A DNA stretch of 64,000 nt from Okamejei kenojei (taxonomy: Eukaryota), in assembly GCA_035221665.1 (NCBI GenBank), contig CM069132.1, positions 66,898,001 through 66,962,000 on the forward strand, read 5' to 3'. The translations under genes and the position numbers were made by a program. Below the pieces are notes generated by a model. That model ran no database searches and was not told the origin of the DNA. It was given only the letters and a program-made list of their open reading frames with translations. Positions 801-64,000 of this stretch are shown here, piece by piece. Each line of letters starts with the position of its first letter. The first letter of the stretch is position 1.

Positions 801-988
801 AGGGAGGAACTGCAGATGCTGTGCTGACACAAGTGCTGAGTAATATAACGGGTCAGGCAGCATCTCTGGAGAAAAAGAATGAGTGACGTTTCTTTCTTTC
901 ATCTGCAAAAGTGTTCTGACCTGAAATGTCACTCATCTTTTTTCTCCAGAGATGCTCCCTGACCCACTGATTTACTCCAGCACTTTGT
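801..988. mobile_element. Penelope-derived short element, head-to-head palindromic pair, degenerate hammerhead core
   Basis: Inverted arms (gggtcaggcagcatctctggagaaaaa / ttttttctccagagatgctccctgaccc). Flanked by a ~23-bp direct repeat gtctatcttgtgggaaggagtgt (778-800) / gtctatctggtgggaagaagtgt (989-1011). Confidence 0.75.
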
Positions 989-2124
989 GTCTATCTGGTG
1001 GGAAGAAGTGTGGTCTAAAAAAAAGAGCCTAAAGGAAGTTAAATGTGCAACCTTCCTGGGAGAAGGTTCAAGAGATATTTTGCTGAATAGTGGAGGTGCT
1101 GTTGAGCTAGAAAACCATAGAAAACTCATGGGGCTCGGGGTCAAAGGCTGTGCTGAAGCAGTGTGGCAGTTCCTGGAAATGTGATATCTCCAGATGGGGG
1201 TCTGTGCGAAGAATGGATAATATTAACCGAGGCTATACCTACAGAGATATAAGGTGCACAATAAAAGCATTCTTCAAGAGACATGGGGAGGTGCATTGTG
1301 AGCTGTTCAGGTGAAAGATAGATAGCTAAGGCTGGGCACAAATCTGTTTCACAACCTGTCAACAAGTAAAGCAAGTTTTGCAGCAATATGATTGGAAAGA
1401 AACTGCTGAGAAGGCTGCTTCCATGAGGTTGAGAAACAAACCGGTGAAGCAAAGTAGCACTAAACTAGATTAGAACGAGGTGTCCCAGAGGAAAAGGCTT
1501 TGAGTCTGGGTCCAATCAAAGAAGTCCCTTTGGAGTAGCCTGAGGCAAAGGCATCTGTGACTTGGCAATTTCGGAACAATGCGCCTATTCACATGCCTCA
1601 TATGAAGGCAGTTGAGAGAAAAGTCTGTTTGAACAGCATGAAAGAACCAGTACATAGGACCAGTTCTAGAATAGCTGGATGTCTACAAGAGCCTACAAGA
1701 AAAGGGAAAATTAATATGAAGTGCTGAAATGTGTTGCTATTGATTAAGTCAGGCAGAAGCAATACAGAAGCTGAGACTATACGAGTTCTGTGAAAGCACT
1801 CAGTTGTCAACCAGACTCTCGCTATTTGCAGATTTGTCCAATGGATTGAATTAAGTAGAGGTTTTCCAAGAGTAATGCATTGTAATTTGAAGACAGCTCC
1901 AAAACTCTGATAATCCATTGAAGCATGTAACAGTAGGCATAGATTTACTAATATCAGCCCAATAGAGCACAACTGGAGTGCGGCTGGACAGATTGAAAAG
2001 ATTCATGTTAGAGTCAAAAGTGTTCGGGATGTCTCAGAAAAATAAGTTTGTGACTGCAAACGTGAGTGGGAAAATGGAAAGGTGCATTGGCTACAGTGAG
2101 GCAGATTGGGAGTTAATTCAAGGA

Positions 2125-2635
2125 AGACTCTATTGAACTTCTACAGGAGTATTGAAGAGAGTAAACTGACTGGGTGCATCATGGCCTGGTTCAGTAACTC
2201 AAACAGCCGGAATGGAGGAGATGACAGTGCGTGATGTACACTACTCAGTCCATCACTGTCTATCATCAAAGGAATACGTAGGAAGCACTGCTTCACAAAG
2301 CATCAACTATCCTCAAAGATCCACACAAGTCTGGCTATGGTCTCGTTTCATCTGTACCATTGGGGGAAAAAAAGTAGAAGAGTTTGAAACTCATAATGAC
2401 CAGCTTTAACAATAGCGTAATCTCAGCAATTATTAGGCTCTTGAACACTACACAACATTAGCCTTTACTATGAATGACTTTGAACACTGTCTTTGGTTGG
2501 ACTTTGGACATTTTATTTCCACCTGGATTATGAATTTTTGATTAATAGTGAGTTTACAGGCCTGTTAGCCTACTGCAAGTAAGAATTTAATTGCTCTGTT
2601 GTCGTTACATATGACAATTAAACATTTTTGACTCT
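2125..2635 (+). mobile_element. Degenerate 3' fragment of a Rex1/Babar-like non-LTR retrotransposon
   Basis: Translates TLLNFYRSIEESKLTGCIMAWFSN, resembling the Rex1/Babar RT C-terminus. Ends in a catatgacaattaaac..ttgactct tail. Confidence 0.6.
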
Positions 2636-2715
2636 AAAGATGGAGATCAATGAACAACAGAAATAGAAATAGTTGAGTGAGTTGAGGACATTGAGCAACA
2701 TACAAATACAATGAA

Positions 2716-2790
2716 AGACACAAAGTACTCAAGTAACTCAATGGGTCAGGCAACATCTCTGGAGAACATTTACGGTTGGGATCCTTCTTC
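2716..2790 (-). mobile_element. Penelope-derived short repeat fragment
   Basis: agacacaaagtactcaagtaactcaatgggtcaggcaacatctctggagaa matches the family seen throughout the window. Confidence 0.65.
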
Positions 2791-3018
2791 GGGGGGAGGG
2801 GGAGTGGTAAAAGTTGGAAGAGAGGAGGGCGAATGATCAATTTAGCATAGGTCCAGAATTAAATGAAGCACCATCTGTCCTGACAGGCTAGGTGCAAAAA
2901 ATGATTATTAAGATATTTATATGTTCTGCATTTTGTTCATCTTGTTAGATAGTTTTAGAATTTAAGGGTCATAGCATTGGGTTTTAAGCTACCCAAGTGG
3001 AATATGAGGGGCTGTTAA

Positions 3019-3355: not shown

Positions 3356-3449
3356 ATTATAATTACAGCTGCCATCATGTTTGATATGAGTTATTAGCCT
3401 CTGTGTTAAACTTTATATGAGCAGTTAAGTGACAAACAAAAATTATAAT

Positions 3450-3586
3450 GTTTAAGAAAGAATTGCAGATGCTGGAAAAATCGAAGGTAGACATAAATGC
3501 TGGAGAAACTCAGCGGGTGAGGCAGCATCTATGGAGCGAAGGAATAGGTGATGTTTCGGGCCAGGGTCTCAACCCAAAACGTCCAC
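3450..3586 (-). mobile_element. Penelope-derived short element with a 13-bp TSD
   Basis: Family sequence flanked by a perfect direct repeat caaaaattataat at 3437-3449 and 3587-3599. A short inverted piece lies at the right end. Confidence 0.8.
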
Positions 3587-4710
3587 CAAAAATTATAATC
3601 GATCCAACATTTCAGAGGAAGTAACATTGAAACAATTGCAGTACAAGGTGTGCCACTGCATTTTATACAAGGTGTATCTTCAGCGGGGATCTGTTTGAAT
3701 CATTCGTTGGTGCCTGGAGTGGGTATTTCAAGATGTCAAGAAAAGTGCATTACTCAATGGACAAAGAGACCAAGTGCTTGATTTAATTCATAGTTGCATG
3801 TTTATGGAAATAATTAACCTATTGTAGAGTTTCATAAATGTCAATATTTAATTGTATCTATTGGCAAATGGAGCGGAAACAGTGCAGAGCATACACGTGT
3901 AAGTGTACCTTTAAGAATTGAGTTACTATGTGGTGTGACTTTGCACGTTGTGGGCCAGACCCTGCTGTTTAGTTGAGAGTTACTGCCTGCCATAAAGAAT
4001 ATTCTGTTTATAGCTCTACTTCTGTTTATTTTCTAATACAAGCAGCAACACAAAGGAACCTACAGATAGCACAGGTACAGTCAACTGACTCGGGCGTGCT
4101 GCTCAAAACCATGCTTCTACCATAGGGAGTTCATGCTTCTTGCCTGACTCTTGAAATTATGCGTGGTTACAGGGCATAACCTTGCTGAAGACTGGAAATT
4201 CAATGGGTTGCCTATTGGGGCTCACATTGATGTATACAGTGTATGAAAGAAACATCTGTCGCTATAGTCCAAAAAGCAAACTGTGTGCAAATCCCTTTGA
4301 GCTAAGGTTTTATTTTAATGCATTTATATGCGCCATATAATTTCCTCTATCCGAGCCCTTCAAGATTTTGAAGACATTACAATATCTTACTCCAGCCTCC
4401 CTGCTCCATTGGCAAGAACAACAGCTTCTCTTGTTCATTTGTTTTAGCTAGAGAAACTTCATCTTTGTGACCATTCAAATAAATCTCCTCTCTCTTAAGG
4501 TCTTGACCATTTCGTCACAGCAAGTGGTGCCCAGAAATTATCTTCATTCTCCACTTGGGTCATAACCAGTGTTTCATACAGGTCTCGCAACGGCTTCAGA
4601 CAGAATGTTTCATGGAGAAAGGGAACAAAGGTGGAGTGTTAATGTTCAGGAAAACTGACAGCATTTTGAGAGTTGTCTTTAACCTCTTGCCGGTGTGAGA
4701 TAAGGGATCC

Positions 4711-13690: not shown

Positions 13691-13985
13691 TGAATAAACC
13701 CTCACAGGTTGACTTTTGAATGGGACAAATGGGACTAGCTTAGAAGGGACATTCAGATAGGCATGGACAAGTTGGGCCGAATTACCTGTTTCTGCTCTGT
13801 ATGACTCTATTTCTTTCTAACTTTCCCCCCATCTCTTACTAGGAATTCAGCAACGTTTCTGCACAGCCAAGACCATGTTGTGACCGGCATCAAATCCTTA
13901 TTGCCTCTAGCTGGCAGAGTTCTTGGAGATCAGTTCATCCATAAATATTCCACATAAACTACATTCCTATCCGCTACATTCCTAT

Positions 13986-14078
13986 GTCTGAAGAAGCGTC
14001 TTGACCCGAAACGTTGCCTATTTCCTTCGCTCCATAGATGCTGCCTCACCCGCTGAGTTTCTCCAGCACTTTTGTCTA
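13986..14078 (+). mobile_element. Penelope-derived short element with a well-preserved minimal hammerhead-like core
   Basis: CTGAAGA-A-GCGTC-TT-GACCC-GAAAC-GTT at 13988-14015, followed by the family body. Possible ttcctat TSD. Confidence 0.75.
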
Positions 14079-14599
14079 GCTTCCTATCATCTAATCTTAT
14101 TCTCGTTCCACAAATGCTGACTGCTCAGCTGAGCATTTCCAGCATGTTTTGTTTTGGTTTTCAATTCTATGGATGTTGTCAGTTTATTTTGTTTGTGCAC
14201 TATTTAATTTAGGATGGGGATAGTCTATTGCTGGAAGTTAATGTCTGTTAAGGAGTTTTTTAAAGGAACAAAGTTTAAAAACTACTCCAGCCCATAAAAA
14301 AAGAACAGATGTCACAGCCATAAAGTTTTGGCGATCGGATTTAATTAGAATGTTGGCACAATAAAGCTCAAATCTCCCAAATAATCAGAGGGTGCAATTA
14401 ATTTGAATGAAATGACAGAGGGTTGACCTGTTAGGTAAAGAACATCCTAAAAGTTCTTAAAAAGGTTTGTGTTCCAATCCCGTGAAAGGGAGCTTCTCGT
14501 GACAGTCACTACTCGCTTGAAGTATGATAACTTGGCAAGATAACTGATTTCATCAAATGTTGTTATTATTTCTCAGGTAATATTTCGGAGGAGGAACAA

Positions 14600-15103
14600 T
14601 AGAATTTAATAGACTATGTTCGAGAGTTAGATAAGTTCTTCTCACAATTGTGTGGAGGAAATGTGTTTGGTGAAGGACACACTGAGGTGTTTCGATACAA
14701 TTGAGTCCTTGTGCATAAATCACTAAAAGTTAAAATATAGGTATTGGAAACAATCAATAAGGCAGGCAGTATGTGGGCCTTTAATGCAAAAAGGATGATA
14801 GTTACACAAACTGGAAAGTAAAACTCAGTGGGACAGGCAGCATCTTTGGAGAGAAGGAATGGGTGATGTTTCGGGTCAAGACTCTTCTTCAGACTTCTTA
14901 GTGCAAAAGGATTTGAGTATAAGAGTCAGGTTGTTTATGTTCCATTTAATACATTCATACCACACTATTTTATTGGGTGCTAGTATGCTTCCATAGGAGA
15001 TCTTGCATTTAGGTTTGGTCTCCTTATCTAAGGATACACTTGCGGCAAAGGGAACGCATGAAAATTCACCTGATTGATCTCTAGAAATGTTAAGACAGCT
15101 GTA
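14600..15103 (+). mobile_element. Old CR1 ORF2 3' fragment, interrupted by a Penelope-derived repeat (14803-14895, minus) and by the element starting at 15104
   Basis: Diverged matches to CR1 (aaaaggatttgagtataagagt, tttggtctccttatctaaggat, ttcacctgattgat). It continues as ggagagattg after 20511. Confidence 0.6.
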
Positions 15104-20875: not shown

Positions 20876-21740
20876 AATTCACAGAAGGGGTGTTCATTCA
20901 GTGCTGAGATAAGAAAATAATTTCCTCACCTTGAGGTTAGAGGATATTGGGAATTCTCTACCCAAGAGGCTTCTTGGGCCTCAGTTGCTGAGCGTATCAA
21001 AAGATAAAATATTCAGTGCATCAAGTAAATGCACATTCAGAAAGCAGTATTGAGGTGAAAGATGTCTAGGCTTATTGAATGGTAGCCAGAACAAGGAGTC
21101 AAATTATTCACTATTTCCTCTATTTCCTATGGCCTTATGTTCTTGGCAAGGTTTGAAAGGGCCTTCAATGGCATGGTTTGAATTTCACCTACATAATTTA
21201 TGATATTTAGTAAAACACATACAAAAGGTAATTGAGATGGGAAGGTTGAAAGATAAAGATGGAATTACTATGGTGAGAGTAAATATCGTGGTCAAAGGAT
21301 AGGGTTTTGATAGGGAAAGCGCATTACAAGTTGCGATGTCAGTAACTAATGGCAATCATCTTCTGTAAGCAGGTTAAGAAATAGAAATCTCTTTGCAAAG
21401 CTGATGATAGAACTGGTCTACTGGGAGTATTTCCAGACACAATATGGCAAATGTTCCTCTCTTTGTCTCTGGGATAAAACATTTCTTTGCCATTTCATGA
21501 ACAAGAACTCAAGGAATGGCATGTGCTGGAATCTTGAGCACAACACAAAGTGGTGGAGTAACTTAATGGGCCCGGCAGGATCAGTGGCGGGATTGGAGAG
21601 ATGACGTTTATCCATTCCACGTACAGATGTGGCTTGACCTGCTGAGCTCCTCCATCACTTTGTGTTTTGCACAAGGAAGCATTCAGTTGTGCTGGTTCTT
21701 TTAATGAGCTGCCCAGTGAGTTCATTTGCTCAGTGGTATT

Positions 21741-25865: not shown

Positions 25866-25997
25866 AGGAAACACAAGGAACTGCAGATGCTGGAATCTTG
25901 AGTAAAGCACAAAGTACTGGAGTAACTCAGCAGATCTTGCAGCATTGCCTCAGGTCATAGACAGGCAATGTTTCTGGTCGGGATCCTTCTTTAGACT
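25866..25997 (-). mobile_element. Penelope-derived short repeat
   Basis: ggaactgcagatgctgg..ctggagtaactcagc..gtttctggtcgggatccttctttagact. Confidence 0.7.
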
Positions 25998-26583
25998 CTC
26001 AAAGGAGGAGCAGTGAGAGAGGATCTCATAGAACAGAAGGAAAGAGGAGGAGACCTTCTTCAAAGGAGGCATACTTTGAGGAGATTTTTCACTGGAGCAA
26101 CTTCTGGAGGGCATGAACATGCAACAATTCAGCTTAGGATCCTTCCGTGTATTTATCTGGCTTCACATAATTCCCACCTCTTCACATAATACCCTTATAA
26201 TAACCCAGTTGCACCACACTTAAGATATAAAGGTAAAGCATTTTTTAAATTAGATCAATAGGGAATGTTTGAACCTAGACTCACCCCTGCAAAAGAATTG
26301 GATTAGGTGTGACATTGGATTTACACCCCATTTCATTTTACCCTCCTTTGAAATCTGCACTGCAAGGATGCAGTAATTGTGAGCAGGTGTAAAACTAGCA
26401 TTCCACCCAAATCCTTGACTCATGCTTGACAAATGAGATTACAATTATCCCCAAAGCGTCTGTGTATTTGTTCAACAGTCGCGGTTTAACTTGTTGAACC
26501 TCCACATCACCGCAATGACTAAAATAAATGAGTGATCGCACCCATCTCCGGGACCCAGGTCCCTCTGCTGGATGGATGTGTAA

Positions 26584-32254: not shown

Positions 32255-32613
32255 CATCACATTTCTAACTGTCCTGTATCACTTCATCTCATGCCACACC
32301 ACAAATTGGCTGGATTTAACAACACTGCCTGAAGAAGGTGGTAGATGTAAGTACTCCCAGAACATTCAAGAACTATCTAGCGATCACTTGAATTGCACAT
32401 AAAAACTAAGTGTGAGAAGAGCTCAATGGGGCAGGCAGTATCTGTGAAAGGAATTGGACAGACAATGTTTCAGGTTAGATAGCAATTGAATGGCCAAGGC
32501 ATAGAGAGCCATGGACCAAATGTTGACAAACGGGATAGGTATAATTGGGTACTTCATGGTCAGTGTGGACATGGTGGGCTGAGAGGCGTGTCTATGACCC
32601 TATAACACTCCCC

Positions 32614-32649: not shown

Positions 32650-33489
32650 AAAACAATGAGCAGCCTTTGAATGTTAACATCATGCTCACAGTTCACTGAG
32701 AGTATGGTCTCACCACAAAGGGAAACATCTGTGCCAGTGAGTCAATCAAAGGATTCTGTATTGAACAAAACATCATGGGCAACTCAACTTACCTGGGTAA
32801 TGTACATAATTACAATGCACCCATAAGAAATGAACAGCTACGATGATACATTTAATCTATAATAAGACTTCAAACCCACTCTGTATGAAACTCAAGACAA
32901 ATCTCTGTGAATACAGTGCAGCTGTGCTTTTATGCAGAAATTAAATCTGGGCATTTTGCCATTGCTTTATAAAGCAGCATTACAATGCACAGCATGGGAG
33001 ATATCAAAAGGAGTGGTAACACATGTGTAGTATTGGTGGATTGTACCTGTCCACAAATCAAACAACTTCCCAAAGCCATATCAAGAGCTCACTAAGGCCA
33101 AGTAGAATGATTCACTGATGGGAAGTCTTGTATGGCTCACTGATGTTCGGACATAAAATCTTGATATATGTTACTGACATGAAGTTCCATGCTGAGAATA
33201 TGAAGTTGTTGCATCACCATTACAGAAACAAGGAACTGCAGATGCTGGTTACAATAAAAGATAACGTGCTGGATAACTCAACTGTCTGACCCAAGCTGTC
33301 TCAAGCACTTGGCATCACCTTTATAATTGTTTACCGAGCTTCTTTCAGACTAGTTAAAAAGAAAATCTTTGAAGGGAGAGTGTTTGATTAAGGTACTAAA
33401 TTAATATGTTGGCTTGTTGTTGTGAAAGACGAGGATGTGTTGAACTGATGCATATTTCTAGCTTTTCCCTCTTTTGTTGCAGATATCTG

Positions 33490-33750: not shown

Positions 33751-34338
33751 TGGTTACACAATGATAAGAATTAAAGGGTGGGCAGGAAAGTGAGAACTGG
33801 GGTGGGGGGATTTGAGGGGGTTGTGGGCTGAGGGGGCATACCAAGCTGAACTGCTTAATGAGGCATATGGCATGCTCAGCTTTGTGATGACTAATCTGAT
33901 ATTCAAGCAATTCATGCATACTTGCATCAAAACCAGACATTATTCACCAGTGGGCAGTCAATTAGAATGCAGCATTAGTGCTAAAAATGACCAAGAACCA
34001 TCTCCCCTTGACCCGTGGGAAAATGACCTGCCTTCTTCTGTCCATATTGTTGACAAAACACCAGAACTATGTTTGAAAAGCAACGTGCATGCTCCAAACA
34101 ATTATTAAACGGAGTTTCAACAGCAAAGCCCAAAGACCTGCCTCATGAATTCCAACAACATCTACAACCACAAAGTATTTTTTCTTCGAAAGGTGCAACA
34201 ATTAATTTATCTAGCTCCATGAACATGCAGTACATCACAAAACTCCACAAAATCAGTTGCTAGCCCTGATTTGTTCTGGCCTTTTCTTGCCTCCAGTTTA
34301 TTTTAATTCACCTCCACCCCCTCCCGCACCTCTACTTT

Positions 34339-34472
34339 CAGTCTGAAGAAAGGTTCCATCTCGAAATGCTACCTATTCCTTCTCTCCAGAGATGCTGCCT
34401 GACTCGCAGAGATACTCCAGTGCTTTATGTCTATCTTTGGTATTAACCAGCATTTGCAGTTCTTTCCTACAC
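34339..34472 (+). mobile_element. Penelope-derived short repeat with a degenerate hammerhead core
   Basis: ctgaagaaaggttccatctcgaaatgct followed by the family body. Confidence 0.75.
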
Positions 34473-36654: not shown

Positions 36655-37596
36655 AAAAAGGACACAAAGTGCTGGAGTAACTCAGCTTATCAGGATGCAT
36701 CTCTGGAAAACATGGATAGGTGACATTTTGGGTTCAGGACCCTTCTTCAGACAGATTGCGGTGGGGTGGGAAAGGGGTTAAAGCGGAAAAGGAGGAGGGG
36801 CAGGACAAAGCGGACTTCAGGTCTGAAGAAGGACCCCAACTTTTTGCTTCAGAGATGCTGACTGATCCGCTGCATTACTCCAGCACTTTATGTCTACCAA
36901 GTGCAGGACAAAACCTGGTGAGTGAGGGGTGGGGATGTGATAGTCAGATGGATGGACAAGGGTTAATTACATAATATTGGAGAATTCTAATGTTCATACC
37001 ATTAGGTTGTAAGCGTCCCAAATGGAATATTAATATTAAGTGCTGTTCCTTTAGTTTACCCGTGTCCTCACTCTAGCAATGGAGGAGGCCCAGGTCAGAA
37101 ACATCAGTATGGAAATAGGAAGACGAGTTAAAATGGTTAGCAACCAGGAGATCACGTAGGCCTTGGCGGACCGAGTGCACGTGTTCAGCGAAATAGTTGC
37201 CTAGTCTATGCTTGATCTCTTCGATGTAAAGGAGATGACATCGAGAACTCCAGATGCAGTAGTTAAGGTTAAAGGAGGTGCACAATGTACCTCTGCCTCA
37301 CCTGGAATGACTGCTGTGGTCCCCGGGTGGATGTAAGGTATAGGGACAAGTGTTACATCTTCTGCAGTGGCTGGGAAAAATATCTGAGGAAGGGGTGGTT
37401 TGGGTGGGGATGAATGAGTGAACCAAGGCTTCATGGCGATAACAGTCTCCATGGATGGCCTACGTGATCTCCTATTGCTAACTATTTTAACTCCTCTTCC
37501 TATTCCCATACTGACCTTTCTGTCCTAGGCCTCCTACATTGCCAGTGTGATGCCAGATGGAAACTGGAGGACCAACACCTCATATTCAGATGGATA
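36655..37596 (-). mobile_element. Penelope-like element remnant with a GIY-YIG endonuclease fragment and an inverted 3' copy
   Basis: ORF 37073-37285 reads CTSFNLNYCIWSSRCHLLYIEEIKHRLGNYFAEHVHSV..VANHFNS..LGLLHC, a decayed PLE GIY-YIG. 37455-37596 (+) repeats its C-terminal part in the opposite orientation. Hammerhead-type repeats lie at 36655-36900. Confidence 0.88.
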
Positions 37597-37597
37597 G

Positions 37598-37950
37598 TGT
37601 TTTCTTCAGCTGAAGTTACAACTGGTTTTATAGACACAATGAACTGTAGATGTTAGTTAACCAAAAAAGACACAAAGTGCAGTAGTAACTCAGCGGGTCA
37701 GGCAGCATCTCTGGAAAACATGGATAGGCGAACTTTGGTGTTGAGCCCCTTCTTCAGATCGAATAATGGTGCTGACCCGAATGTCACCTATCCATTTTCT
37801 TCAGAGATGCTGGCTGACCTGCTGAGTTAGTCCAGCACTTTTGGGTTTTTTTTTGGACAATTTGTTTTCATTATTTTGTTTCCACAAGCAAAGAAACACG
37901 AGGTTCTTAGGAAAGTTTAGGGATTTTATCTTTCTTGAGACTACCTCAGC
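37598..37950 (+). repeat. Left arm of a ~340-bp inverted duplication (contains a Penelope-derived palindrome)
   Basis: gtgttttcttcagc..tatagacacaatgaactgtag..tttttggaca..tccacaagcaaagaaacacgaggttcttaggaaagtt..ctttcttgagactacctcag is reverse-complementary to 38945-39280. Confidence 0.85.
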
Positions 37951-38944
37951 AAACTTACCACCAAACAGTATAAATATTGAATTCCCCAATTTTAGCTAAT
38001 TAGCTTGTTTGGCCACACAGTGCAATAGTGCCATTTAATTCTCAAACCTCCTACTGACAACACAGAATATTTAATAGGACATCTTTGAACCCATGCCGAG
38101 CTCCACAATGAATCATGATTTTTCAGCATATTTGTAAAATAATCAGTCTCATACCATGCCATAACTCTTCTTGGTGTGACTAGTAAATTAATAACATATA
38201 GGCTTACATCTATCATGAGCAGAGAGAAGACATCAGCCAAAGCTGTCATTTTTTAGACTCCTACTGCTCACAGATATGACAGCAAAGCCTTTTCACCTGT
38301 AGTGGGGAAAAACTGCATTAAAGTAACAAACATCAGCAATCAGTCACATGTTGAATATCAATTAAAAAAATATATTAATGGCCTTGATTGCTGTAAAAAA
38401 ACCCAACTTGCCTTGGAATGGTTCCAAGCAGCAAAATGATAATGGCTCATAACTTAATGGGAATTATTGACATTTCTGTATGCAGCAACGTGTGAAATAG
38501 TCACTAAAGGTCATTCAGTGAGAAAGAAATTGAATGGATATTACAGTGCATTGTTTTAATGGTACTGCAAATCATGTTTTGCACTGCAGTTTAGGATATA
38601 TTTTTGTAATTTGATTTTTATACAAATGGGTCTGTTGTTCTTTAATTTGACACATACGCCTTCAGAAAGACACGTACGCCTTCAGAATGAATATGAGCGG
38701 GCTTGTATAAGTGCCAACAGATTCCAGTCTGAGATATCAATTGATGGGAAGCACCATTTCCCCCCCCCCCCCCCCGTTAGTTACTATAAACCGTGTCATT
38801 TTGAGCTCTCTTGGAAGACTGGGAAAGCCCAGAAGAACCTAGTCCTAATTATTATATAATCGCTAGAACCTAATTAGCGATTTACAGAAGAAAATAAATA
38901 CCTCCTTCAATTTTGCTGTTCTTCTCACTAGAGTGATGACACTT

Positions 38945-39280
38945 ACTGAGATGGTCTCAAGAAAGGCAGCATCTCTCAACTTTCCTAAGAAACTCATGTT
39001 TCTTTGTTTGTGGAGACTAAATCATGTCAACCAGCTGTCCAAAAAAGACATAAAGTGCAGGAGTAACTCAGTGGGTCAGACAGGATCTCCGGAGAACACG
39101 GATAGGTGATATTTCTGGGAGGTAACCTTCTTCAATCTGAAGAAGGGTCTCAACCCGAAATATCACCTATCAATGTTTTCCAAAGATGCCGCCTGACCCG
39201 TTGAGTTACTCTTGCACTTTGTATCTTAACCAGCAACTACAGTTCATGGTGTCTATAAAATCTTTGGCTGAAGAAAACAC
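38945..39280 (-). repeat. Right arm of the inverted duplication, with a hammerhead-like core at 39137-39164 (+)
   Basis: See left arm. Core reads CTGAAGA-A-GGGT-CTCA-ACCC-GAAA-TATC. Confidence 0.85.
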
Positions 39281-41049: not shown

Positions 41050-44000
41050 GATTAGTCATAGAGTGATACAGTGTGGAAACAGACCCTTTGGCCCAACTTG
41101 CCCAACAATGTCCCAGCTACCCTTGTCCCACTTGCCTGCGCTTGGTCCATATCCCTCCAAACCTTTCCTATCCATGTACCTGTCTAAGTGTTTCTTAAAC
41201 GATGTGATAATCCCAGCCTCAACTACCGCCTCTGGCAGCTTGTTCCATACACCCACCACCCTTTGTGTGAAAAAGTTACCCCTCGGATTCCTATTAAATT
41301 TTTTCACTTTAACTTGAACCTATGTCCTCTGGTCCTCGATTCCCCTACTCTGGGTAAAAGCCTCTGTGCAACTACCTAATCTATTCCTCTTATGATTTTG
41401 TATACCTCTATAAGATCCTCCTGCGCTCCATGGAATAGAAACCCAGCCTACTCAACCTTTAGTTCACACCCTCTAGGCCTGGCCACATCCTTGTATTATT
41501 TCCTGAACCCTTTCAAGCTTGACAATATCTTTCCTATAACATGGTGCCCAGAACTGAACACAATATTCTAAATACGGTCTCACCAACGTCTTACACAACT
41601 GCAACATGACATCCCAACTTCTATAATACTATGACTAATGAAGGCCAAAATGCCAAAAGCCTTTTTGACCACCTTATCTATCTGCGACTCAACCTTCAAG
41701 GAATCATGCACATGTACTTCCGAAGAACCATGCATCAGTCTGAAGAATGGTCTTGACCCATAACATCACCCATTCCTTTTCTCCAGAGATCCTGCCTGAC
41801 CCACTGATTTACTCCAGCATTTTGTGTCTACCACCTGTACTCCAAGATCCATCTGCTCGATAACACTAACCAGAGGCCTACCATTTACTGTGTAGGTCCT
41901 GCCCTTGTACGACATCCCAAAATGCAACAACTTACACTTCTCTGTATTAAATTCCATCAACCATTTCTCCGTCTACCTGGCCAATCGATTCAGACACTGC
42001 TGCAATCATTCACAACCATCTTCACTATCTGCAAACCACTAACTTTTGTTTGCTGATGATACTTGCTAATCTTGCCCTGTGTTTTTTCATCCAAATCAGT
42101 GATGAAAAACAGTAACAGGCCCAGCACCAAACCCTGAGGCACACCATTAGTCACAGGCCTCCATTCTGAGAAGCAACCTTCGACCATCACCCATGCTTCC
42201 TTCCATGGAGCCAATTTGCTAACCATTCGGCTATCTCTCCTTGGATCCCATACGATCTAACCTTTCAGAGCAGCTTACCACGCGGAACCTTGTCGAACGC
42301 CTTACCGAAGTCCATGCAGACAACATCTACAGCTCTGCTCTCATCAACCTCTTTGGTCACGTCTTCAAAAAGAATCAATCAGATTTGTGAGGCACAACCT
42401 CACATGTATAAAACCATGCTGACTGTCCCAAATCAGCTCTTGCCCATCCAAATGTCTGTATATACTATCCCTCAGAATACTCTCCAGCAACTTACCAACT
42501 ACAGATGTTAAGCTCAACGGCCTATACTTTGCAGCATTTTCCTTGCAGCCCTTCTTGAAAAGAGGCACAACATTTGCCACCCTCCAATCTTCCGGCACCT
42601 CTCCTGTATTTAAGGATGACTCGTAAATTTCAAACAGGGCTCCCACAATTTCCTCTCTAGTTTCCGGCAATGTCCTCGGATATATCTGATCAGGCCTAGG
42701 AGATTTGTCTACCTTCAAACACGACAGTATCTTCAGTACTTCCTTGATGGTGACCCTGACTGCTCTCGAGACACTTCCAGTGACTGCTCCAATTTCCTCC
42801 CTCCTACTGTCTTTCTCCTCGGTAAATACAGAGGAGCAATACTCATTTAGGACCTTGCTCATCCCCTGTGGCTCTGCACAGAGGTGACCGCTTTGATTCC
42901 CGAGAGGTCCCACTCTCTCGAGTTACCCTTTTTCCCCTTATGTATTTATAAAATCTTTTGGGATTGTCCTTAATGCTACCCACCAGAGCTATCTCCTGGC
43001 CCCTTTTTGCCCTTCTGATTTCCTTTTTTTAAGTTTACTCCTTAGTTCCCAAAACTCCTCCAGTGATGCACTTGATCCCAGCTGCCTGTACCTGTCACAT
43101 GCATCCTTCTTGTTTTTGACTAACGTCTCAATATCCCTCGTCCGCCAAGCTTTCTTATGTTTGCCTGCTTTGCCTCTTCAGTACACTTTTAAAAAGAACC
43201 CACTTGGCCAATGTTCCTTCCCCCTCAAATAACCTGCTCCAGTCAACGCGAGTGAGACCTTCTCTCATTCCCTCAAAGTTGGCCTTACCCCAGTTGTGCA
43301 TTTTAACCCATGGACCCTCTCCATCCCTATTCGTAACTGTCTTAAACTTAATCGAACTGTGGTCACTAGTCCCAAAAGGCTTCTCCACACACACTTCATT
43401 AACTTGCCCTTCCCAATTTCCCGATACTAGATCCAGTGTTGCCTCCACATACTGCTTAAGAAAACTCTCCTGAACACATTTGAAGAATTACACCGCTATC
43501 TAAACCCTTCACGCTATGATTTTCCCAGTCTATATTGGGAAAGTTAATCTCCCTTAACAACCTTATATGACCGGCAGCTGTCTGCAATCTTCCAGCACAT
43601 TTGTTCCTCTAATTGTCATTGACTATTTGGGGGTCTGTTGTACACCCTAAACAAGGTGATCATCCATTTCTTGATCCTCAGCTCCTCCCCTATAGCCTCA
43701 CTAAACAAACTGTCCATAATGTCACCTCTGTTCACAGCTGTGACATCCTCCTTTACCAACAATGCAAACCCCCCCCACCCCCCCACCTCTTTTTCCCTCA
43801 CCCCCGTCTCTCCTGAATCCTGGAACATCGAGCTGCCAGTCCTGCCCGTCCCTTAACCAGGTTTCAGTCATGGCTACAACGTCCCAGTCGCTCATTCCTA
43901 TCCATACCCTGAGCTCATCTGCGTTACCCGTCAGGATCCTTGCATTGAAATATGTGCCGTTTAAACCAACCTTCTTTCCTAGCTCTCTGCTGCTCCCGTG

Positions 44001-45240: not shown

Positions 45241-45459
45241 CTCCTTCACCAATTATTGTTCTGTGATCATTTGTATATTTTTTCTCCACAAGTGCTGCCT
45301 GACATGTGGAGCACTCCCACCTCTGCTTTTCCCCTGTGCTGATGATTTACGGATCAATATTGGCCCAATGTGAATGAGGATAATTCTCCTTCTCTTTAAA
45401 ATGACAATAATGAATGTTTTAAGTTAACTGGGAAAGGAAACGGTACCCACATTTAATAT

Positions 45460-45692
45460 AGACAAAAGTGCTGGAGAAACGCAGCGGGTGAGGCAGCATC
45501 TATGGAGCAAAGGAAATAGGCAGCGTTTCAGGCCGAAACCCTTCTTCAGACAGAATAAGGGTTTCAGACTGAAGAAGGGTTTCGGCTCAAAACATTGCCT
45601 ATTTCCTTTGATCCATAGATGCTGCCTCACCCGCTGAGTTTCTCCAGCACTTTTGTCACTTTGATTTTCCAGCATCTGCAGTTCCTTCTTAA
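45460..45692. mobile_element. Penelope-derived palindromic element with two hammerhead-like cores and a 15-bp TSD
   Basis: ~90-bp near-perfect inverted arms. TSD acccacatttaatat (45445-45459) / acccatatttaatat (45693-45707). Confidence 0.88.
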
Positions 45693-45990
45693 ACCCATAT
45701 TTAATATCTTGTTTCAAAATACAATGCCTCTGACAGAGAAGTATCAATTGCATGCAGCAATGGAACATCATCCTAGACTTCTGTGCTCAAGTCATTCCAA
45801 TGTGATTTATAAACATATTTTCATCTGCAGGTTTTGTTTTGAAATATTAAACAGTAGCTTTCATAATTTGGAATGCAATATTAGAACAAAAGAATATAGC
45901 AAAAGAGGTATACTCATGAACATGTTATTTGGCCCCTCTTGCTGTCTCTACCATTCAGTAAAATCATGGATGATTTTACTTCAGCTCCAT

Positions 45991-56011: not shown

Positions 56012-56555
56012 GAGGACACAAGGAACTGCAGGCGCTGTCTTGCAGTAAAAGATGCAAAATGCTGGAGTACCTTGGCTGGTTAGGCAGCACCTCTGCCATC
56101 TGTACATAATAAAGGTCTGATTGTCCACAGCTCCAATGGGTGCAGAAGATGAGCACAGCTGTTACGAATGTGACTGCATCCTAGTTCCATGGTTTTAAAC
56201 TCAATGGTCTGATTTTTTGCAAACATGCCAACAGGTATAGCATGCAAGAGACTGCAGGTGTTGCAATCTGAACCAAAAAATAAACTGTTGGAGGAACTCG
56301 GTTGTCAGCAACATCTGTGAAGGCTGAGGAATGGTCAATATTTCAGGTTGAGACCACGCACCAGTCTTTTCCTCCATTGGTGTTGCTTGACTGATTGAGT
56401 CCTTCCCAGAGTTGATTTTTATACCAGCAGGAGAAGAAGAGTCCTGAGCTGAAACGTCACCTGTCCATTTCCACCACAGATGCTGTCAGACCTGCTGTTC
56501 CTTCAGTACTTTGTGTTTTGCTCAAGATTCCAACATCTGCAGATCCTTGTGACTT
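56012..56555. mobile_element. Cluster of three older Penelope-derived repeats
   Basis: Diverged family matches at ~56012-56100, ~56245-56400 and ~56430-56555 (gaagaagagtcctgagctgaaacgtcacc). Confidence 0.6.
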
Positions 56556-58136: not shown

Positions 58137-58257
58137 AGGGTCTTGACCTAAAACGTCACCCATTCCTTCTCTCCCTGAAATGCTGCCTGTCCCGCTGAGT
58201 TACTTCAGCATTTTGTGTCTATCTTCGGTTTAAACCAGCATCAGCAGTTCCTTCCTA
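58137..58257 (+). mobile_element. Penelope-derived short repeat
   Basis: agggtcttgacctaaaacgtcacccattccttctctcc..gagttacttcagcattttgtgtctatc. Confidence 0.75.
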
Positions 58258-59340: not shown

Positions 59341-60004
59341 ATTATCAGATGTTAGAAGGATTTTCAGATGTTAAAGACTGGAAGAAGCTAAGGTTTAACC
59401 AGAGATTTATAAATGTTTAATATGCTATTTTTCTACCTGTTAGAGTCAAATAACCCCAAATAACACTGCCTTATCATGATGCTTCATTGCTTGTAAAGAT
59501 TTATGAAGATGCATCTTCTTCTGGTCGTATACACCTTCACAGTAGTCCTGTTGCTTGTGAAGAGCCACCTGATATGCGTGACTTCATTCCAAGTCACTGA
59601 ATTGTTCTGTCCTCTTCTTATGCCCGACAAAATCATCAATTAGCCCAGATGCACACATTCTCCAAAACATGGTATATTATTGCACAGGATACACTGTCCC
59701 TAAGTTTGGTTATTATTCAAGATAGTTGAAATGTGTATTCTCTCAACCCAATTTCATTACATTTATATAAAACTGGTAATGTTTCTAATAATGATTCTTG
59801 ATGGAACTTGCTGTACACATTTCTCCAGTCAGTATAACAACTATTAGCCTCCTTAATCTTCTTGTTTGCCTTGTATTCCTTAGCTAAACATTTCTTCTTC
59901 TTCTTGGGTAATTCCGTGGATTGAGGTTGACTTGTATCCATTCTGACTTTCTGTGTTTTGAGGTAACTGGAGAGGATATTGTAGGAACCTATGTAACTGA
60001 AGAA

Positions 60005-60092
60005 GTCTGAAGAAGTATCTTGACAAGAAACATCACCTATCCGTGTTCTCCAAATATGCTGCCTGACCTGCTGAGTTACTCCAGCATTTTGT
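60005..60092 (+). mobile_element. Penelope-derived short repeat
   Basis: ctgaagaagtatcttgacaagaaacatcacc plus body. aacctatgt is duplicated on both flanks. Confidence 0.75.
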
Positions 60093-60461
60093 AACCTATG
60101 TCGCTACTTTTTAGTTCCGTGAGCTTTGATTTATCACATCATTCTATTATTTGGTCTTTTGGCAAGTCCACAAACACAATATTTACTGTGCTAGTGTTAT
60201 TAACAATCTTCTTTCAGCTGGTATCAATATCACTGCCCTATGACATACATTCCACAATTCCCGACATCTCCCCTTCTGTACAACTTTAAAATATTTTTGA
60301 TTTCTACCTTTTCCTAGTTCTGGTGAAAGATCATCAGCCTGAATTGTTAACTGGTTTCTTTCTGTAAAGTTGTTGCCTGATCTGCAAAATATTTCCAGCA
60401 TTTCTTGCTTACTTGGCATTTTAAGCATCTGTTTTTTTTAACCATCATTAACCTCTGTATA

Positions 60462-60770
60462 AGGTAGAGTCGCAGGTAAATAGGTTGGTCAAAAAGGCTT
60501 TTGGCACATTGGCCTACTCAGTCAAAGTACTGAGTATGGAAGTTGGGAGTTCATGTTGCAGTTGTATAAGACGTTGGTGAGGTTGCATTTAGATTATTGT
60601 GTTCAATTCTGGGCACCATGTATTAGGAAAGATGTTGTCAAGCTGGAAATGGTATAGAGAGGATTTACAAGGATGTTACCAGGACTAGAGGGTCTGAGCA
60701 ATAGGGAGAGGTTGAGTAGGCTGGGGCTCTATTCCATGGAACGCAGGAGGATGAGAGGTGATCTTATAGA
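60462..60770 (+). mobile_element. CR1 ORF2 C-terminal fragment
   Basis: ORF 60673 reads MLPGLEGLSNRERLSRLGLYSMERRRMRGDLIE. Confidence 0.85.
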
Positions 60771-60845
60771 ATATAATTATGATTCAATCCCATTCCCCTG
60801 CCTTCTCCCTGTAACTTTTGACCACTTTACTAATCAAGAACCTAT

Positions 60846-61290
60846 CATAGAATCATAAAGTGATACAGTGTGGAAACAGGTCCAACTCGCCCACACCAAC
60901 CTACAATGGCCCAGCTACCCTAGTCCCACTTGCCTGTGCTTGGTCCATAACCCCCCCAAACCTGTCCCATCCATGTACCTGTCCAACTGTTTCTTAAACA
61001 ATGGAATAGTCCCAGCCTCAACTACCTCCTCCGGCAGCTTGTTCCATACACCCACCACCTTCTGTGTGAAAAAGTTACCCCCCGGATTCCTATTAAATCT
61101 TTTCCCCTTCACCTTGAACCTATGTCCTCTGGTCCTTGATTCCCCTACTCTGGGTAAAATACTCTGTGCATCTACCCAATCTATTCCTCTCATGATTTTG
61201 TACACCTCTATAAGATCTCCCCTCATCCTCCTACGCTCCATGGAATAGAGACCCAGCCTACTCAACCTCTCCCTATAGCTCATGCCCTCT
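60846..61290 (-). mobile_element. CR1 3' end fragment
   Basis: ORF 60915-61283 reads SYRERLSRLGLYSMERRRMRGDLIEVYKIM..NFFTQKVV..WNKLP, followed by the tail. Confidence 0.9.
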
Positions 61291-64000
61291 TGTCAATCTT
61301 CCCTTTAAAAATAGCTTTTTGTGTACTCAGTGCTATGAGTCCGTACTGCGAGCTATCTCTCCAAGCCCCCTAGTTACTCGCTGCAGAGACCAAAGGAATG
61401 AACAATAAATCATCACATCATGTCTCTGTAGTTACTGATGCATGAAGGAAACTAATAAAGGGTGAAATAGCCGCACAGCAAACATAACATGGTCTGGTCT
61501 TGGGAGACCTCCCCAGCGGGAAGTTAATGGCTGTGACCTCTGTTCTGTTTGCTTCTCTTTTTCTAACGTGTAAGCATTCTGTGTTCCTGCTACTTCAGTG
61601 GTATTTCCTCTCTTGGCAGGTAACAGGCAGTGCACTAATATCAGTAGTCATTCTTTCCGAAAGCATTCTTCTTCTGACAAACAATGGACCAGGTCCATAC
61701 TCCAACTGAACTGTCACCCACTCTCAGCTCCTGTATTAATCGTGCAGCCACATTGCAGGATCTACTATCCTGGTCACCCTCCGGCCCATTGGTGAGGTCG
61801 ATTGAGCCACAAGTGACCAGCAGGCCATCAGTCACAGACCAAATCTGAAATCTCACCCACCTCCAGTAAAAACCCTAGCCTTTGATGCCATGTTGCTCTC
61901 AATGACTTTTAATAAGTGTTTCTAACAGTTGTTTAAAAGTATTCTGAATGGATTGTAAAAAAATTAGGTTAATTAAAAAAATTAACATGTTGTAATAAAG
62001 AAAAATACATTGAAAATGAGTCAAACCTCTTTAAGGTCCACAACCTAATTCAAATGAATGAGATAATTGTTTGTAAAGCAGGGGTTCTGGAAGCAGCAGG
62101 ACTCTGAGAGAATTATTTTGTGTGACAGTGAGTTCAGTGGTGGAACAGGAGGTCTGATGTGAATTTTAGCCTGTCTCCAATTCTGTGCTGTAGAGCTTGG
62201 CTACACAAGTGAAAGACTCTTAACCTTGGAAAGGGAATGGGCATTCACTTCCCATACAGCTTCCGCAAATATCAAACCTGGCCTGTCTCAAAGCCTGCAA
62301 ACTTAGCAGTCTCAAAAGTAGATTTAATGTTTATAAATACTGCCATTACTTAGGTTCATCATGTTCTTGAAAAGAAAGATTTAGAAAGTTGCAGCCCTGA
62401 TGCAAAGTCTCAACTAAAAATGTTAACCTACTCCGTTTGCCTCTACAGATACTGCTTGATTTGCTGAGCTTTCTCAGTGTTCTATTTGTGTTCTACATTC
62501 CAGCATCTGCATATTCTTTTTATAGATAATTTAATAATTTGGCAATTCATTAAAATGTATTAATACATCATCCATTTGTTTCTTTGTTTGGCCAATATTC
62601 TTTCCCTTTATTTCAGCAAAGGATGAAAAATTACAAGGTTGCATCTGGATTAAAGCAAACAGTGAATTTAGGTTCATCGAAGAAATAAATCAGCAATTCC
62701 TTGTTGCCACAAAACAAATGTACAAACGTGATGTTGGAGGAGATGGTTAACTTTTACTTTATCTCACTGCAACGTGCATCATTTACATTTCTTTTAAGCC
62801 ACTGATTTGAGAAACATTTATAAAGCTACCTATAATGCGTGACATGTGATCGAGATATCTTTCTCGCCAATGGGGCTGTGTGGTATAATTGTTACCAGGG
62901 CCAGAGCAGATCTGACAGTTATCATAAATATGCCAAAAGCCAGTTAAATGCCACATCAGTAAAAATGAAATATTTTCAACACAGTAAACATGAGTGACAG
63001 TTTTGCCATCCAGATGACCCCTGGTATTTATTACATTTACTTCATGCATTAATTACAATTGCAGATGATATTAGGATGCTGTCATATCCCCCATCTATAA
63101 ACATAAAATGTCACATTTCATCTTGCTTCAAAACTTTGAAAGACATTGTTAATGTTTGAGATGTGTTATCTGCTCTAAGTCAAAGATATCTGACTGGAAC
63201 TATATGCCAGATGTGCTTCACTTTCTGCCAAGGTAGTGCAGATCTCTGTGCGCTCAGCGCTACAGTTTTCCCTTTGGATTTATGAAGCATTTTATAAATA
63301 ACATTTAAATAACTCTCCGATATTCTATGTTAAAGTTTGTCTCACACTATCTGGAGTTCATTGTAGAGCTTTGGAAACATTGAGTTTTCTTCCTCGAGGT
63401 AAACCCAAGCCCCTTTCTGAAATTCCTTTCAAGTGTCTTAAAAATGTATAGCATATACTTTCCATTGGTACAGAGTTAGGCCAGTTTGATATTGCTACAA
63501 GGAGAAGGATATTATATTTGAGGGTATTGGCTAGTTTGTAGAAGAGTATGGTATTATATATATTTGTTGAACACTCATTGTGACAATCCTAAAACATAAT
63601 TAATTGGTGGAATTCATAATTGTTTCTATCGACAGGCCTCCCAATTACATTTGCATTCTAGGAAACAGGAATGATCTGAATCTTGGTTGCTCATTTACAT
63701 TTTACTAGACAAATGCACTATGTATTATGCTAAAAACAAACTTTCAAAAAGAATGGTGACAATATGCAGCATCTTTTAACCATTTGGGCAAGAAATAACA
63801 AAATTGTTGTTAAAAGCAATGTTTAAGAGCATCCCCAATTGTTCCAGTCCATTTCCAAAAAATACCAAGTCTTGTTTGTATGAATGCCTGTTATCCATAT
63901 CATTTTTGAAAATGACCTAAATAATCTTTAATGTGTTACACCTCCTGTCACACGTGCACATTAATCACACCTTGTTGGTAGCATTATGATCTCCAATGGT

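What the first reader, a model, noticed from the sequence alone, without database searches (positions are those of the whole stretch)
801..62515. Abundant Penelope-derived mini-elements carrying minimal hammerhead-ribozyme-like cores
Seen: more than a dozen 90-250 bp copies of one family. Those that keep the head start with CTGAAGA-A-[stem-loop]-GAAA-(C/T)(G/A)T(C/T). The best cores are 13988-14015 (+), 14863-14893 (-), 39137-39164 (+) and 45522-45549 (-). Two stem II variants (GGGTCTCGACCC-type and GGGTTTCGGCCC-type with a UUCG loop) both keep pairing, and the helix III position is a self-complementary ACGT or ATAT. Established: Penelope-like elements carry minimal type I hammerheads with palindromic helix III that are proposed to cleave as dimers. 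Inference: this is a high-copy non-autonomous, ribozyme-bearing family mobilised by a PLE, whose GIY-YIG remnant sits next to such repeats at 36655-37596. If the locus is transcribed, the RNA would carry many potential self-cleavage sites.
Basis: partly seen in the sequence, partly recalled or inferred. Interest (0 to 1): 0.75.

Follow-up and report, generated by a model that had tools for sequence, protein, structure and literature searches.

The report
Penelope end-stubs carrying decayed hammerheads
About thirty short repeats in this fish DNA match the end piece of a Penelope-type jumping gene and carry its stripped-down self-cutting-RNA motif, mostly mutated; they are likely one-off insertion leftovers of a known kind rather than a new self-spreading ribozyme element.

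Summary
The repeat family is real: 31 arms at 25 loci, 4.6% of the window. One copy follows a Penelope-like GIY-YIG remnant in sense; its closest named relatives come from cartilaginous fishes. Across subfamilies the hammerhead core is better conserved than the rest (7% vs 17-20% non-CpG mismatch), so the motif is the known minimal hammerhead of PLE pseudo-LTRs. The copies are decayed. Only 1 of 16 core-covering arms keeps core, G10.1-C11.1 and a 4-bp stem II; none adds helix I of 2 bp or more. ATAT/ACAT variants follow CpG decay, and stem II shows no significant covariation. A separate non-autonomous family is not supported: junctions differ between loci, TSDs mark separate insertions, some copies run on into the UTR, and there are no tandem arrays. 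Known PLE traits are present: optional tail, head-to-head inversions, TSDs. One point stands out: 5' ends cluster at the ribozyme's first bases, here and in a public DNA run, and 24 of 31 arms span the cut site, so the template was likely uncut RNA starting there. The scan noted this before, in this and other genomes.

The parts
778..1011 (.). Head-to-head fold-back: arm 801-893(-) with tail, 5' end at about +19; arm 901-996(+) without tail; 23-bp TSD with 2 mismatches (778-800 / 989-1011)
2710..2830 (-). Arm with internal deletion and pyrimidine-rich upstream sequence (likely PLE 3' UTR)
3437..3599 (.). Tailed arm 3454-3565(-) plus a short inverted head piece 3563-3584(+, E=0.45) that stops near the predicted cut site; perfect 13-bp TSD
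13985..14091 (+). Solo arm. All 11 core nt intact, ACGT palindrome, GUU triplet, stem II 3 of 4 bp, helix I 2 bp; candidate 7-bp TSD abutting position -2 (read by eye)
14104..14154 (+). Old body-only fragment
14789..14912 (-). Solo arm 14802-14896 with a short direct duplication of the head; core intact, ACAT (not palindromic), stem II 3 of 4 bp; 8-bp TSD
21509..21673 (.). Old fold-back; arms start at +21 (-, tailed) and +30 (+, no tail)
25872..26145 (-). Tailed arm 25872-25997 of an older subfamily with pyrimidine-rich upstream sequence, and a weak head fragment 26103-26145
32396..32477 (-). Old arm, 5' end at +14
33227..33283 (-). Body end plus tail only
34290..34468 (+). Tailed arm preceded by a polypyrimidine tract ending in CAG (likely PLE 3' UTR)
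36656..36973 (-). pLTR arm 36656-36754 and 3' UTR, in sense behind the GIY-YIG remnant
36800..36912 (+). Separate arm (36821-36898, core partly deleted) nested in that UTR; perfect 10-bp TSD
36974..37459 (-). 5'-truncated PLE ORF remnant: Cys-rich linker and GIY-YIG domain, with two stop codons in the aligned frame
37468..37593 (+). Inverted piece of the GIY-YIG C-terminus, head to head with the main copy
37597..37952 (.). Fold-back (37635-37761 -, tailed; 37756-37846 +), both arms starting at about -1, inside a 350-bp segment duplicated in inverted orientation
38943..39280 (.). Second copy of that segment (82% identical, flanks at single-copy depth). Holds the arm at 39137(+), the only one with core, G10.1-C11.1 and 4-bp stem II; helix I 1 bp
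41735..41832 (+). Solo arm, GAAA mutated; gapped TSD of about 21 bp
45278..45312 (+). Weak body fragment (E=0.0045)
45445..45707 (.). Fold-back of the UUCG-loop subfamily: arm 45453-45553(-) without tail, arm 45564-45690(+) with tail, duplicated head at the hinge; 15-bp TSD with 1 mismatch; arms 90% identical
56017..56552 (.). Three old arms: 56017-56095(-), 56245-56365(-, with a weak opposite arm 56361-56429) and 56432-56552(+, tailed)
58137..58256 (+). Tailed arm, 5' end at +7
59986..60101 (+). Solo arm 60003-60097 with duplicated head; core nt intact, stem II 2 of 4 bp; perfect 9-bp TSD
60320..60431 (+). Old-subfamily arm
62397..62513 (+). Old-subfamily arm with tail (N7 = U)

Best explanation
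The repeats match the end piece (pseudo-LTR) of endonuclease-bearing Penelope-like retrotransposons and are likely one-off, extremely short insertions made by those elements, each carrying a now mostly mutated copy of the element's minimal hammerhead. Shown: a shared head, two fixed 3' ends (about +92 and about +122, the tail), TSDs, head-to-head pairs, and one copy continuous with UTR and GIY-YIG. Inferred mechanism: the PLE protein nicks target DNA and starts reverse transcription inside the RNA at one of two sites behind the ribozyme, as shown in vitro for the anole PLE (PMC11167929). If it starts in the downstream pLTR it gives long, variably truncated copies such as 36656-37459. If it starts in the pLTR at the RNA's 5' end it runs off after about 90 or 125 nt, which would explain 5' ends piled at the first bases of the core. 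Copying from both nicked strands, or fold-back at the small natural TCAG-T-CTGA palindrome, would give the head-to-head pairs. The template was uncut, because 24 of 31 arms span the scissile bond. The ribozyme was under selection in the parent elements; in the inserted copies it is a passenger lost by CpG decay.
For: Sense linkage to GIY-YIG; relatives with RT plus GIY-YIG; closest named hits from Rhincodon, Leucoraja and Hypanus. Two 3'-end clusters: 12 of 31 arms end at +89 to +96 and 13 of 31 at +120 to +123. TSD score >=8 at 6 of 23 tested boundary sets against 3% of 150 random spans. Hinges differ between loci: +19/-2, +21/+30, about -1/-1, and a duplicated head. Among 190 pairs of upstream flanks, the 12 best-scoring pairs are all fold-back arms. 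Four arms have pyrimidine-rich upstream DNA (0.78-0.82; 0.7% of background 40-mers reach 0.80). Core non-CpG mismatch is 13/193 against 348/1717 elsewhere and 184/1115 in the body; base-matched permutation P=0.0001 and 0.0014. 14 of 25 non-UTR arms start at -5 to +1 and 1 of 25 near the cut site. In DNA run X1 the loose ends on the head side pile at 14892-14895 (525, 558, 744 and 1510 contigs): AT-rich foreign DNA at two places, a fold-back head at one, a mixed purine-rich consensus at the fourth; no pile at the cut site is among the six rows shown.
Against: No full-length element and no assembled genome were available, so the RNA start is inferred only. The profile begins at -6 and cannot see upstream homology; UTRs differ between subfamilies, so some old arms counted as starting at the head may carry unrecognised UTR. 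In one search the homology of the window copy itself ends at -3, so the largest pile (1510) mixes true ends, UTR-bearing copies and fold-backs; 115 smaller rows were not shown. The seeds were chosen from head-bearing copies and the arms are related, so the conservation P values are too optimistic. Most loci (17 of 23 tested) show no TSD at score >=8. The sequence before the core reads as well as a 3' splice site as it does a transcription start. An earlier scan note on another genome reports arms starting at the cut site (e1-9162017; not tested here).
Confidence: 0.75

Rival explanations
1. Same PLE stubs, but the fixed 5' boundary comes from structure and not from the RNA's end: reverse transcriptase stalls at the purine-rich core or the pyrimidine tract, and the small palindrome in front of the core lets the cDNA fold back or anneal to the target.
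For: The natural TCAG-T-CTGA palindrome sits exactly at the hinge of the fold-backs at 37757 and 45549-45569. PMC3846280 ascribes palindromes at inverted junctions to self-priming. 525 contigs of X1 continue as a fold-back head at this point.
Against: TSD-bounded solo copies (13985, 14802, 41735, 60003) also stop within about 13 bases of C3 without an inverted arm; two of them re-copy the head as a direct repeat, as expected from jumping at a template end.
Confidence: 0.3
2. A true non-autonomous family (SINE-like or retrozyme-like) of 90-250 bp derived from the pLTR, transcribed on its own and mobilised in trans by the PLE.
For: Very high abundance (25 loci in 64 kb). pLTR positions are covered roughly 5 to 20 times deeper than GIY-YIG positions in run X1 (4.6 and 20 million against about 1 million; summed contig depth, not a copy number). 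pLTRs can act in trans (PMC3846280), and animal retrozymes derive from pLTRs (bioRxiv 10.64898/2026.07.22.740005).
Against: No head-to-tail array of the unit. tRNA-type or other promoter heads are not evident in the alignment. Hinges and 5' additions differ at each locus. The same layout recurs in subfamilies 60-92% alike. Some copies continue into UTR and ORF. The only pair with shared flanks is a local inverted duplication at single-copy depth.
Confidence: 0.12
3. The copies act as live ribozymes that cut host transcripts of this locus.
For: 4 of 16 core-covering arms keep all 11 core nucleotides. A FAM110-like exon at 16048-16956 hints at a host gene (at the Pfam cut-off).
Against: 1 arm passes a relaxed descriptor and none with helix I >=2 bp. 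Predicted stem II pairing is about 0 in context for all 7 arms tested. No tandem partner for a dimer. Non-palindromic ACAT (7) is not depleted against ATGT (4). Published min-HHR monomers showed no cleavage and dimers little (PMC4209133).
Confidence: 0.04
4. The hammerhead resemblance is chance in an ordinary repeat.
For: No Rfam hit; no significant covariation; RNAalifold finds no consensus structure; helix I is only 2 bp; the consensus head folds stem II with probability 0.07.
Against: Core conserved above the rest while N7 and loop II vary. The bulge after A9, G10.1-C11.1 and the palindromic 15.2-16.2 are the unsearched traits listed in PMC4209133. The motif lies where PLE hammerheads lie.
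Confidence: 0.04

Closest known systems
Minimal type I hammerheads (min-HHR) in pLTRs of metazoan PLEs (Cervera & De la Pena 2014, PMC4209133; parts 1-2 of 4 read: abstract, results, discussion, start of methods)
   Same: Core boxes, unpaired base after A9, G10.1-C11.1, no loop 3 with palindromic 15.2-16.2, location in the pLTR; mostly dispersed single motifs and opposite-strand pairs ascribed to truncated PLEs.
   Different: Helix II is 4 bp with a YNCG-type tetraloop (7-8 bp in Schistosoma). Helix I is 2 bp (4-5 bp typical; 2 bp in D. virilis). The parts read name no cartilaginous fish. Density here is far above the 4,000-9,000 motifs per genome they give for coelacanth and Xenopus, although those counts are of intact descriptor hits.
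Complex insertions of EN+ PLEs of the Neptune or Nematis type (PMC8557442 and PMC3846280; passages read)
   Same: C-terminal GIY-YIG with a Cys-rich linker, strong 5' truncation, inverted 5' copy head to head, optional 30-40 bp tail on one side, TSDs, solo pLTRs.
   Different: Most insertions here are reduced to 90-230 bp and many begin at one place. Clade not fixed: no RT fragment of the PLE in the window.
Anole Poseidon element PAc (Frangieh et al. 2024, PMC11167929; parts 1-2 of 4 read: main text and start of methods)
   Same: Two internal RT start sites that define the tail, AT-rich targets, uncut RNA as the dominant template.
   Different: Other clade; its pLTR extends well upstream of the HHR; the text read does not describe run-off mini copies in the genome.
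Non-LTR retrozymes (bioRxiv 10.64898/2026.07.22.740005; parts 1-3 of 5 read)
   Same: pLTR-derived, type I HHR, reported in one chondrichthyan, with dispersed monomers.
   Different: Defined by tandem units each with a complete HHR; none occurs in this window.

Membership tests
EN+ Penelope-like element (pLTR-derived insertion) | GIY-YIG endonuclease at the ORF's C-terminus, upstream of the repeat in sense | tested here: met
   441 relatives at E<=0.001; longer relatives carry RVT_1 plus GIY-YIG; tblastn places it at 36974-37459(-). The remnant itself has no Pfam hit.
EN+ Penelope-like element (pLTR-derived insertion) | PLE-type reverse transcriptase in the same ORF | tested here: inconclusive
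   The copy is truncated at 37459; RT-bearing relatives hit only the linker and EN in the window.
EN+ Penelope-like element (pLTR-derived insertion) | Optional 30-40 bp tail at the 3' end | tested here: met
   3' ends cluster at +89..+96 (12 of 31) and +120..+123 (13 of 31); the fold-backs at 801, 21509, 37635 and 45453 have the tail on one arm only.
EN+ Penelope-like element (pLTR-derived insertion) | Inverted 5' copy, head to head, with TSD around the whole insert | tested here: met
   TSDs of 23, 13 and 15 bp around the fold-backs at 801, 3454 and 45453; inverted ORF piece at 37468-37593.
Neptune/Nematis clade | Zn-finger-like Cys motif in the RT-EN linker; RT phylogeny | tested here: inconclusive
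   Cys-rich linker aligns with relatives; no RT for a tree.
Minimal type I hammerhead of PLEs | CUGANGA and GAAA..UH core, conserved above its surroundings | tested here: met
   caveat on seed choice and relatedness.
Minimal type I hammerhead of PLEs | Bulged base after A9, G10.1-C11.1, palindromic 15.1-16.1 | tested here: met
   In the window consensus and in the loose-end consensus and majority letters of DNA runs; lost in most single copies.
Minimal type I hammerhead of PLEs | Helix II supported by compensatory changes | tested here: inconclusive
   72% of cells pair, better than any slid register, but covariation is not above shuffles (104/500).
Minimal type I hammerhead of PLEs | Helix I of 4-5 bp | tested here: not met
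   2 bp in the consensus, as in the D. virilis variant of PMC4209133; a spliced form might differ and was not testable.
Minimal type I hammerhead of PLEs | Self-cleavage as a dimer or with protein help | not testable with these tools
   Needs an assay; the laid runs are contigs.
Non-LTR retrozyme | Head-to-tail tandem units, each with a complete HHR | tested here: not met
   No such array; nearest same-strand cores are 313 bp apart and both defective.
Non-LTR retrozyme | Circular RNA intermediate | not testable with these tools
   No raw-read RNA run was listed.
Independent non-autonomous retroelement family | Copies share a diagnostic junction or own head that the parent lacks | tested here: not met
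   tested within this window only.

The most novel reading that the evidence does not exclude
These elements start their RNA at the first bases of their own hammerhead, which leaves the ribozyme without a usable helix I and so switched off. Internal priming near that 5' end yields fixed-length run-off cDNAs, like retroviral strong-stop DNA, which are integrated singly or head to head and have become the main product of the element: several per cent of a cartilaginous-fish genome. The copies would be a genome-wide in vivo map of RNA start, both RT start sites and the cut/uncut state of the PLE ribozyme.
Probability: 0.35. Interest if true: 0.55.

Novelty: new member of a known kind. Interest (0 to 1): 0.27.

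Why it matters
As a ribozyme discovery it matters little: minimal hammerheads in PLE ends, and their dispersal as truncated single or opposite-strand copies, are in print since 2014, and these copies are mostly dead. The value is as a record of mechanism. The role of the PLE hammerhead and the origin of inverted pLTRs are open questions (PMC8557442, PMC11167929). A family this abundant, with fixed 5' and 3' ends, makes them testable by counting ends in one assembled genome and by 5' RACE. I found no paper on these elements in cartilaginous fishes in the held library, which lacks most subscription papers, Repbase and Dfam.

Tried and rejected
Rfam scan: no hammerhead family at E<=5. No whole genome is held, so no direct copy count. 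Word-indexed protein searches with the GIY-YIG remnant found nothing; Pfam and PDB sequence searches were blank too; only the full phmmer search worked. Motif scans of metagenome and viral contigs: 0 matches. No RNA holder listed; the one 'RNA?' run laid (X21) is flagged as probably DNA and says nothing on expression. RNAalifold on 20 arms: no consensus structure. Single-copy folds: z from -2.2 to +2.1 for 9 sequences, no consistent signal; the best one includes part of a fold-back. One search used a structure shifted by one column; it is discarded and one search replaces it. A nearest-neighbour estimate puts the hammerhead dimer of the consensus head at -6.1 kcal/mol against -24.9 for the best dimer fold; the model ignores core tertiary energy, so this is weak. 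The sigma-70 scan is irrelevant to a vertebrate. Lunse et al. 2017 was not held; I saw it only as summarised in PMC6765202 (passages). Rejected: counting 37597-37952 and 38943-39280 as two insertions (one local inverted duplication); reading ATAT as covariation; reading summed contig depth as a copy number. Dropped from the conservation test: 3 arms with fewer than 55 aligned bases, and in the second run the two short arms of the duplicated locus (31 to 28 to 26 arms). Supplementary files of PMC4209133 and of the bioRxiv preprint were not read and may list shark or skate motifs.

Full report
Observation. The hammerhead pattern occurs 13 times in the window against 4.8 expected; 7 of these rows, at 6 loci, belong to one repeat family. 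A profile built from 18 window copies finds 31 arms at E<0.01 and two weaker ones; the reversed window gives one hit at E=0.07. The 31 arms lie at 25 loci and cover 2,968 bp, 4.6% of the window, 16 on the + and 15 on the - strand. Pairwise identity among 20 arms is 59-92%, and the alignments show several subfamilies. Numbering below sets C3 of the core to 0; the predicted cut lies after +27.

What it derives from. The arm at 36656-36754(-) follows, in sense and through a pyrimidine-rich stretch, an ORF remnant at 36974-37459(-). Read with X at its stop, the last 105 residues have 441 relatives at E<=0.001. Of eight looked up, the five closest come from Rhincodon, Leucoraja and Hypanus, and longer ones carry RT plus GIY-YIG. 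An Atlas search also points to GIY-YIG (score 0.95, family on 18% of that cluster's members). The remnant includes a Cys-rich linker, which PMC8557442 names as the mark of the Neptune and Nematis clades. An inverted piece of the same domain abuts its 5' end (37468-37593 +). No PLE RT fragment was found in the window. The host is therefore likely a cartilaginous fish.

Insertion anatomy. The 3' ends fall into two groups, 12 arms at +89 to +96 and 13 at +120 to +123, with 6 elsewhere. This is the optional 30-40 bp tail of PLEs (PMC8557442), which marks two internal RT start sites in the anole element (PMC11167929). Five loci are head-to-head pairs of two strong arms, four after counting the duplicated one once, and two more have a weak second arm; in the four, the tail is on one arm only. 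TSDs scoring 8 or more were found at 6 of 23 boundary sets (23, 13, 8, 10, 15 and 9 bp) against 3% of random spans; a gapped one lies at 41735, and the rest show none. One arm is nested in the UTR of the GIY-YIG copy with its own 10-bp TSD. The fold-backs at 37635 and 39039 are one insertion, duplicated with its flanks as a 350-bp inverted segment (82% identical; flanks at single-copy depth).

Is it a hammerhead? In consensus, yes. Non-CpG mismatch to the column majority is 13/193 in the core against 348/1717 in the rest and 184/1115 in the body; base-matched permutation gives P=0.0001 and 0.0014, and the 16 arms that span the whole unit give 11/156 against 111/699. These P values are optimistic, because seeds were head-bearing copies and the arms are related. 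N7 and loop II vary more. The consensus has the bulged base after A9, G10.1-C11.1 and a palindromic ACGT, the traits PMC4209133 lists for PLE min-HHRs. Public DNA runs agree: their loose-end consensus and majority letters restore ACGT and the CG in the loop. Against: no Rfam hit, no significant covariation, no RNAalifold structure, and helix I of only 2 bp. In run X1 only 7 of the positions reached 4% variation, six in the head and none a core base, but most body positions were equally quiet, so that test does not separate core from body.

Are the copies live? Almost certainly not. Of 16 arms covering all 11 core positions, 4 keep them all, 3 also keep G10.1-C11.1 with a cleavable triplet, and 1 (39137) also has a 4-bp stem II. 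A relaxed descriptor finds only that arm, and none with helix I of 2 bp or more. In 160-nt context, predicted stem II pairing is about zero for all 7 arms tested; fold-backs bury the core in the long hairpin. All four CpG sites are heavily decayed. ACAT, which breaks the dimer helix, is more common (7) than ATGT (4), which keeps it. ATAT is the double deamination product, not covariation.

Non-autonomous family or stubs? The window favours stubs. There is no tandem array. Hinges differ between loci, and solo copies have different 5' additions. Upstream flanks are shared only among fold-back arms. Four arms continue into pyrimidine-rich UTR-like DNA and one on into the ORF. In run X1 pLTR positions are covered about 5 to 20 times deeper than GIY-YIG positions; the tool warns that this is no copy number, but it fits 1 ORF-bearing locus in 25. 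PMC4209133 already reports min-HHRs mostly as single motifs, and as pairs on opposite strands, probably from truncated PLEs.

The one unusual point. Twenty of 31 arms reach the head. Leaving out four UTR-like arms and one copy of the duplicated locus, 14 of 25 start at -5 to +1, 11 start inside the unit, and 1 starts within 3 bases of the cut site (P=2e-8 against uniform starts over -5 to +62, a null that ignores ends further upstream, which the profile cannot see). 24 of 31 arms span the scissile bond, so their template was uncut, as in the anole assay. In run X1 the four largest loose-end piles on the head side lie at -3 to 0: two lead into AT-rich unrelated DNA, one into a second head, and the largest is mixed. 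I infer that the RNA's 5' end lies there and that priming in the first pLTR gives run-off copies. The bases before the core, TCAGTCT, fit a vertebrate initiator consensus and, with the pyrimidine tract, also a 3' splice site (both consensus motifs recalled, not from a call). In D. virilis an intron ends at the 5' side of helix I (PMC4209133; intron position in PMC2377424, passages read). These readings cannot be told apart here, and a structural stop at the small palindrome is a live rival. The idea that the fixed start marks the RNA start also stands in earlier notes of this scan, which are not independent evidence; one note on another genome reports arms starting at the cut site.

Literature seen. 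PMC4209133 and PMC11167929: parts 1-2 of 4. bioRxiv 10.64898/2026.07.22.740005: parts 1-3 of 5. PMC8557442, PMC3846280, PMC2377424, PMC6765202: passages. No supplements. Searches for these elements in cartilaginous fishes gave no paper on them; only listings were seen.

Verdict. A real, very abundant family; a new member of a known kind. PLE origin and min-HHR identity are well supported; a separate non-autonomous family and active cleavage sites are not. Interest 0.27. The boldest reading left open, fixed-length run-off cDNAs from an RNA that starts at its own disabled ribozyme, has probability about 0.35 and would deserve about 0.55.

Noticed in passing
window, tailed arms (e.g. 45566-45691 +): A 9-10 bp stretch of the body (+45 to +54) is the reverse complement of a stretch of the tail (+102 to +113), recognisable in the 13 tailed arms printed. 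It pairs in the fold of 45566 and could be the stem-loop at the RT start sites; folding z-scores are not significant.
   Followed up: partly
window 3563-3586 (+): The short inverted arm of a TSD-bounded insertion stops within about 3 bases of the predicted cut site; a single case.
   Followed up: partly
window 14893-14904 (-), 59995-60006 (+), 45545-45583: Short direct duplications of the head at the 5' junction of three insertions, as from template jumping at an RNA end.
   Followed up: partly
window 37597-37952 and 38943-39280: A one-off 350-bp inverted duplication (82% identical) around about 1 kb of single-copy DNA; it cuts off the inverted GIY-YIG piece at 37596.
   Followed up: yes
window 46876-50895 (+): A retroelement with RT (Pfam RVT_1, 4e-19) and a tyrosine recombinase fragment (Phage_integrase, 3e-6) in several frames; DIRS-like by this combination (label recalled).
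   Followed up: partly
window 16048-16956 (+): A 302-codon open stretch with a FAM110 C-terminal domain at the Pfam cut-off (7.6e-6) and a 33-bp coding repeat; the frame stops inside the domain, so the gene may be split or broken. No usable Atlas hit.
   Followed up: partly
window 9350-10687, 22311-23945, 29801-30968, 41056-43487, 60461-61294 and others: Many fragments of a LINE with RT; a GDSL-like esterase piece at 44069-44581(-) (below cut-off). CR1-like by recall.
   Followed up: no
window 52381-52791 and 53007-53365: Minisatellites of 48 bp (8.6 copies) and 41 bp (8.8 copies) side by side.
   Followed up: no
window 28404-28642, 46000-46533, 46727-46792, 51063-51396: Other dispersed repeats of a few hundred bases; not identified.
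   Followed up: no
proteins P0002, P0003, P0007, P0132: Database proteins in which the PLE GIY-YIG end is fused to unrelated host or LINE domains; probably gene models that took in PLE fragments.
   Followed up: no
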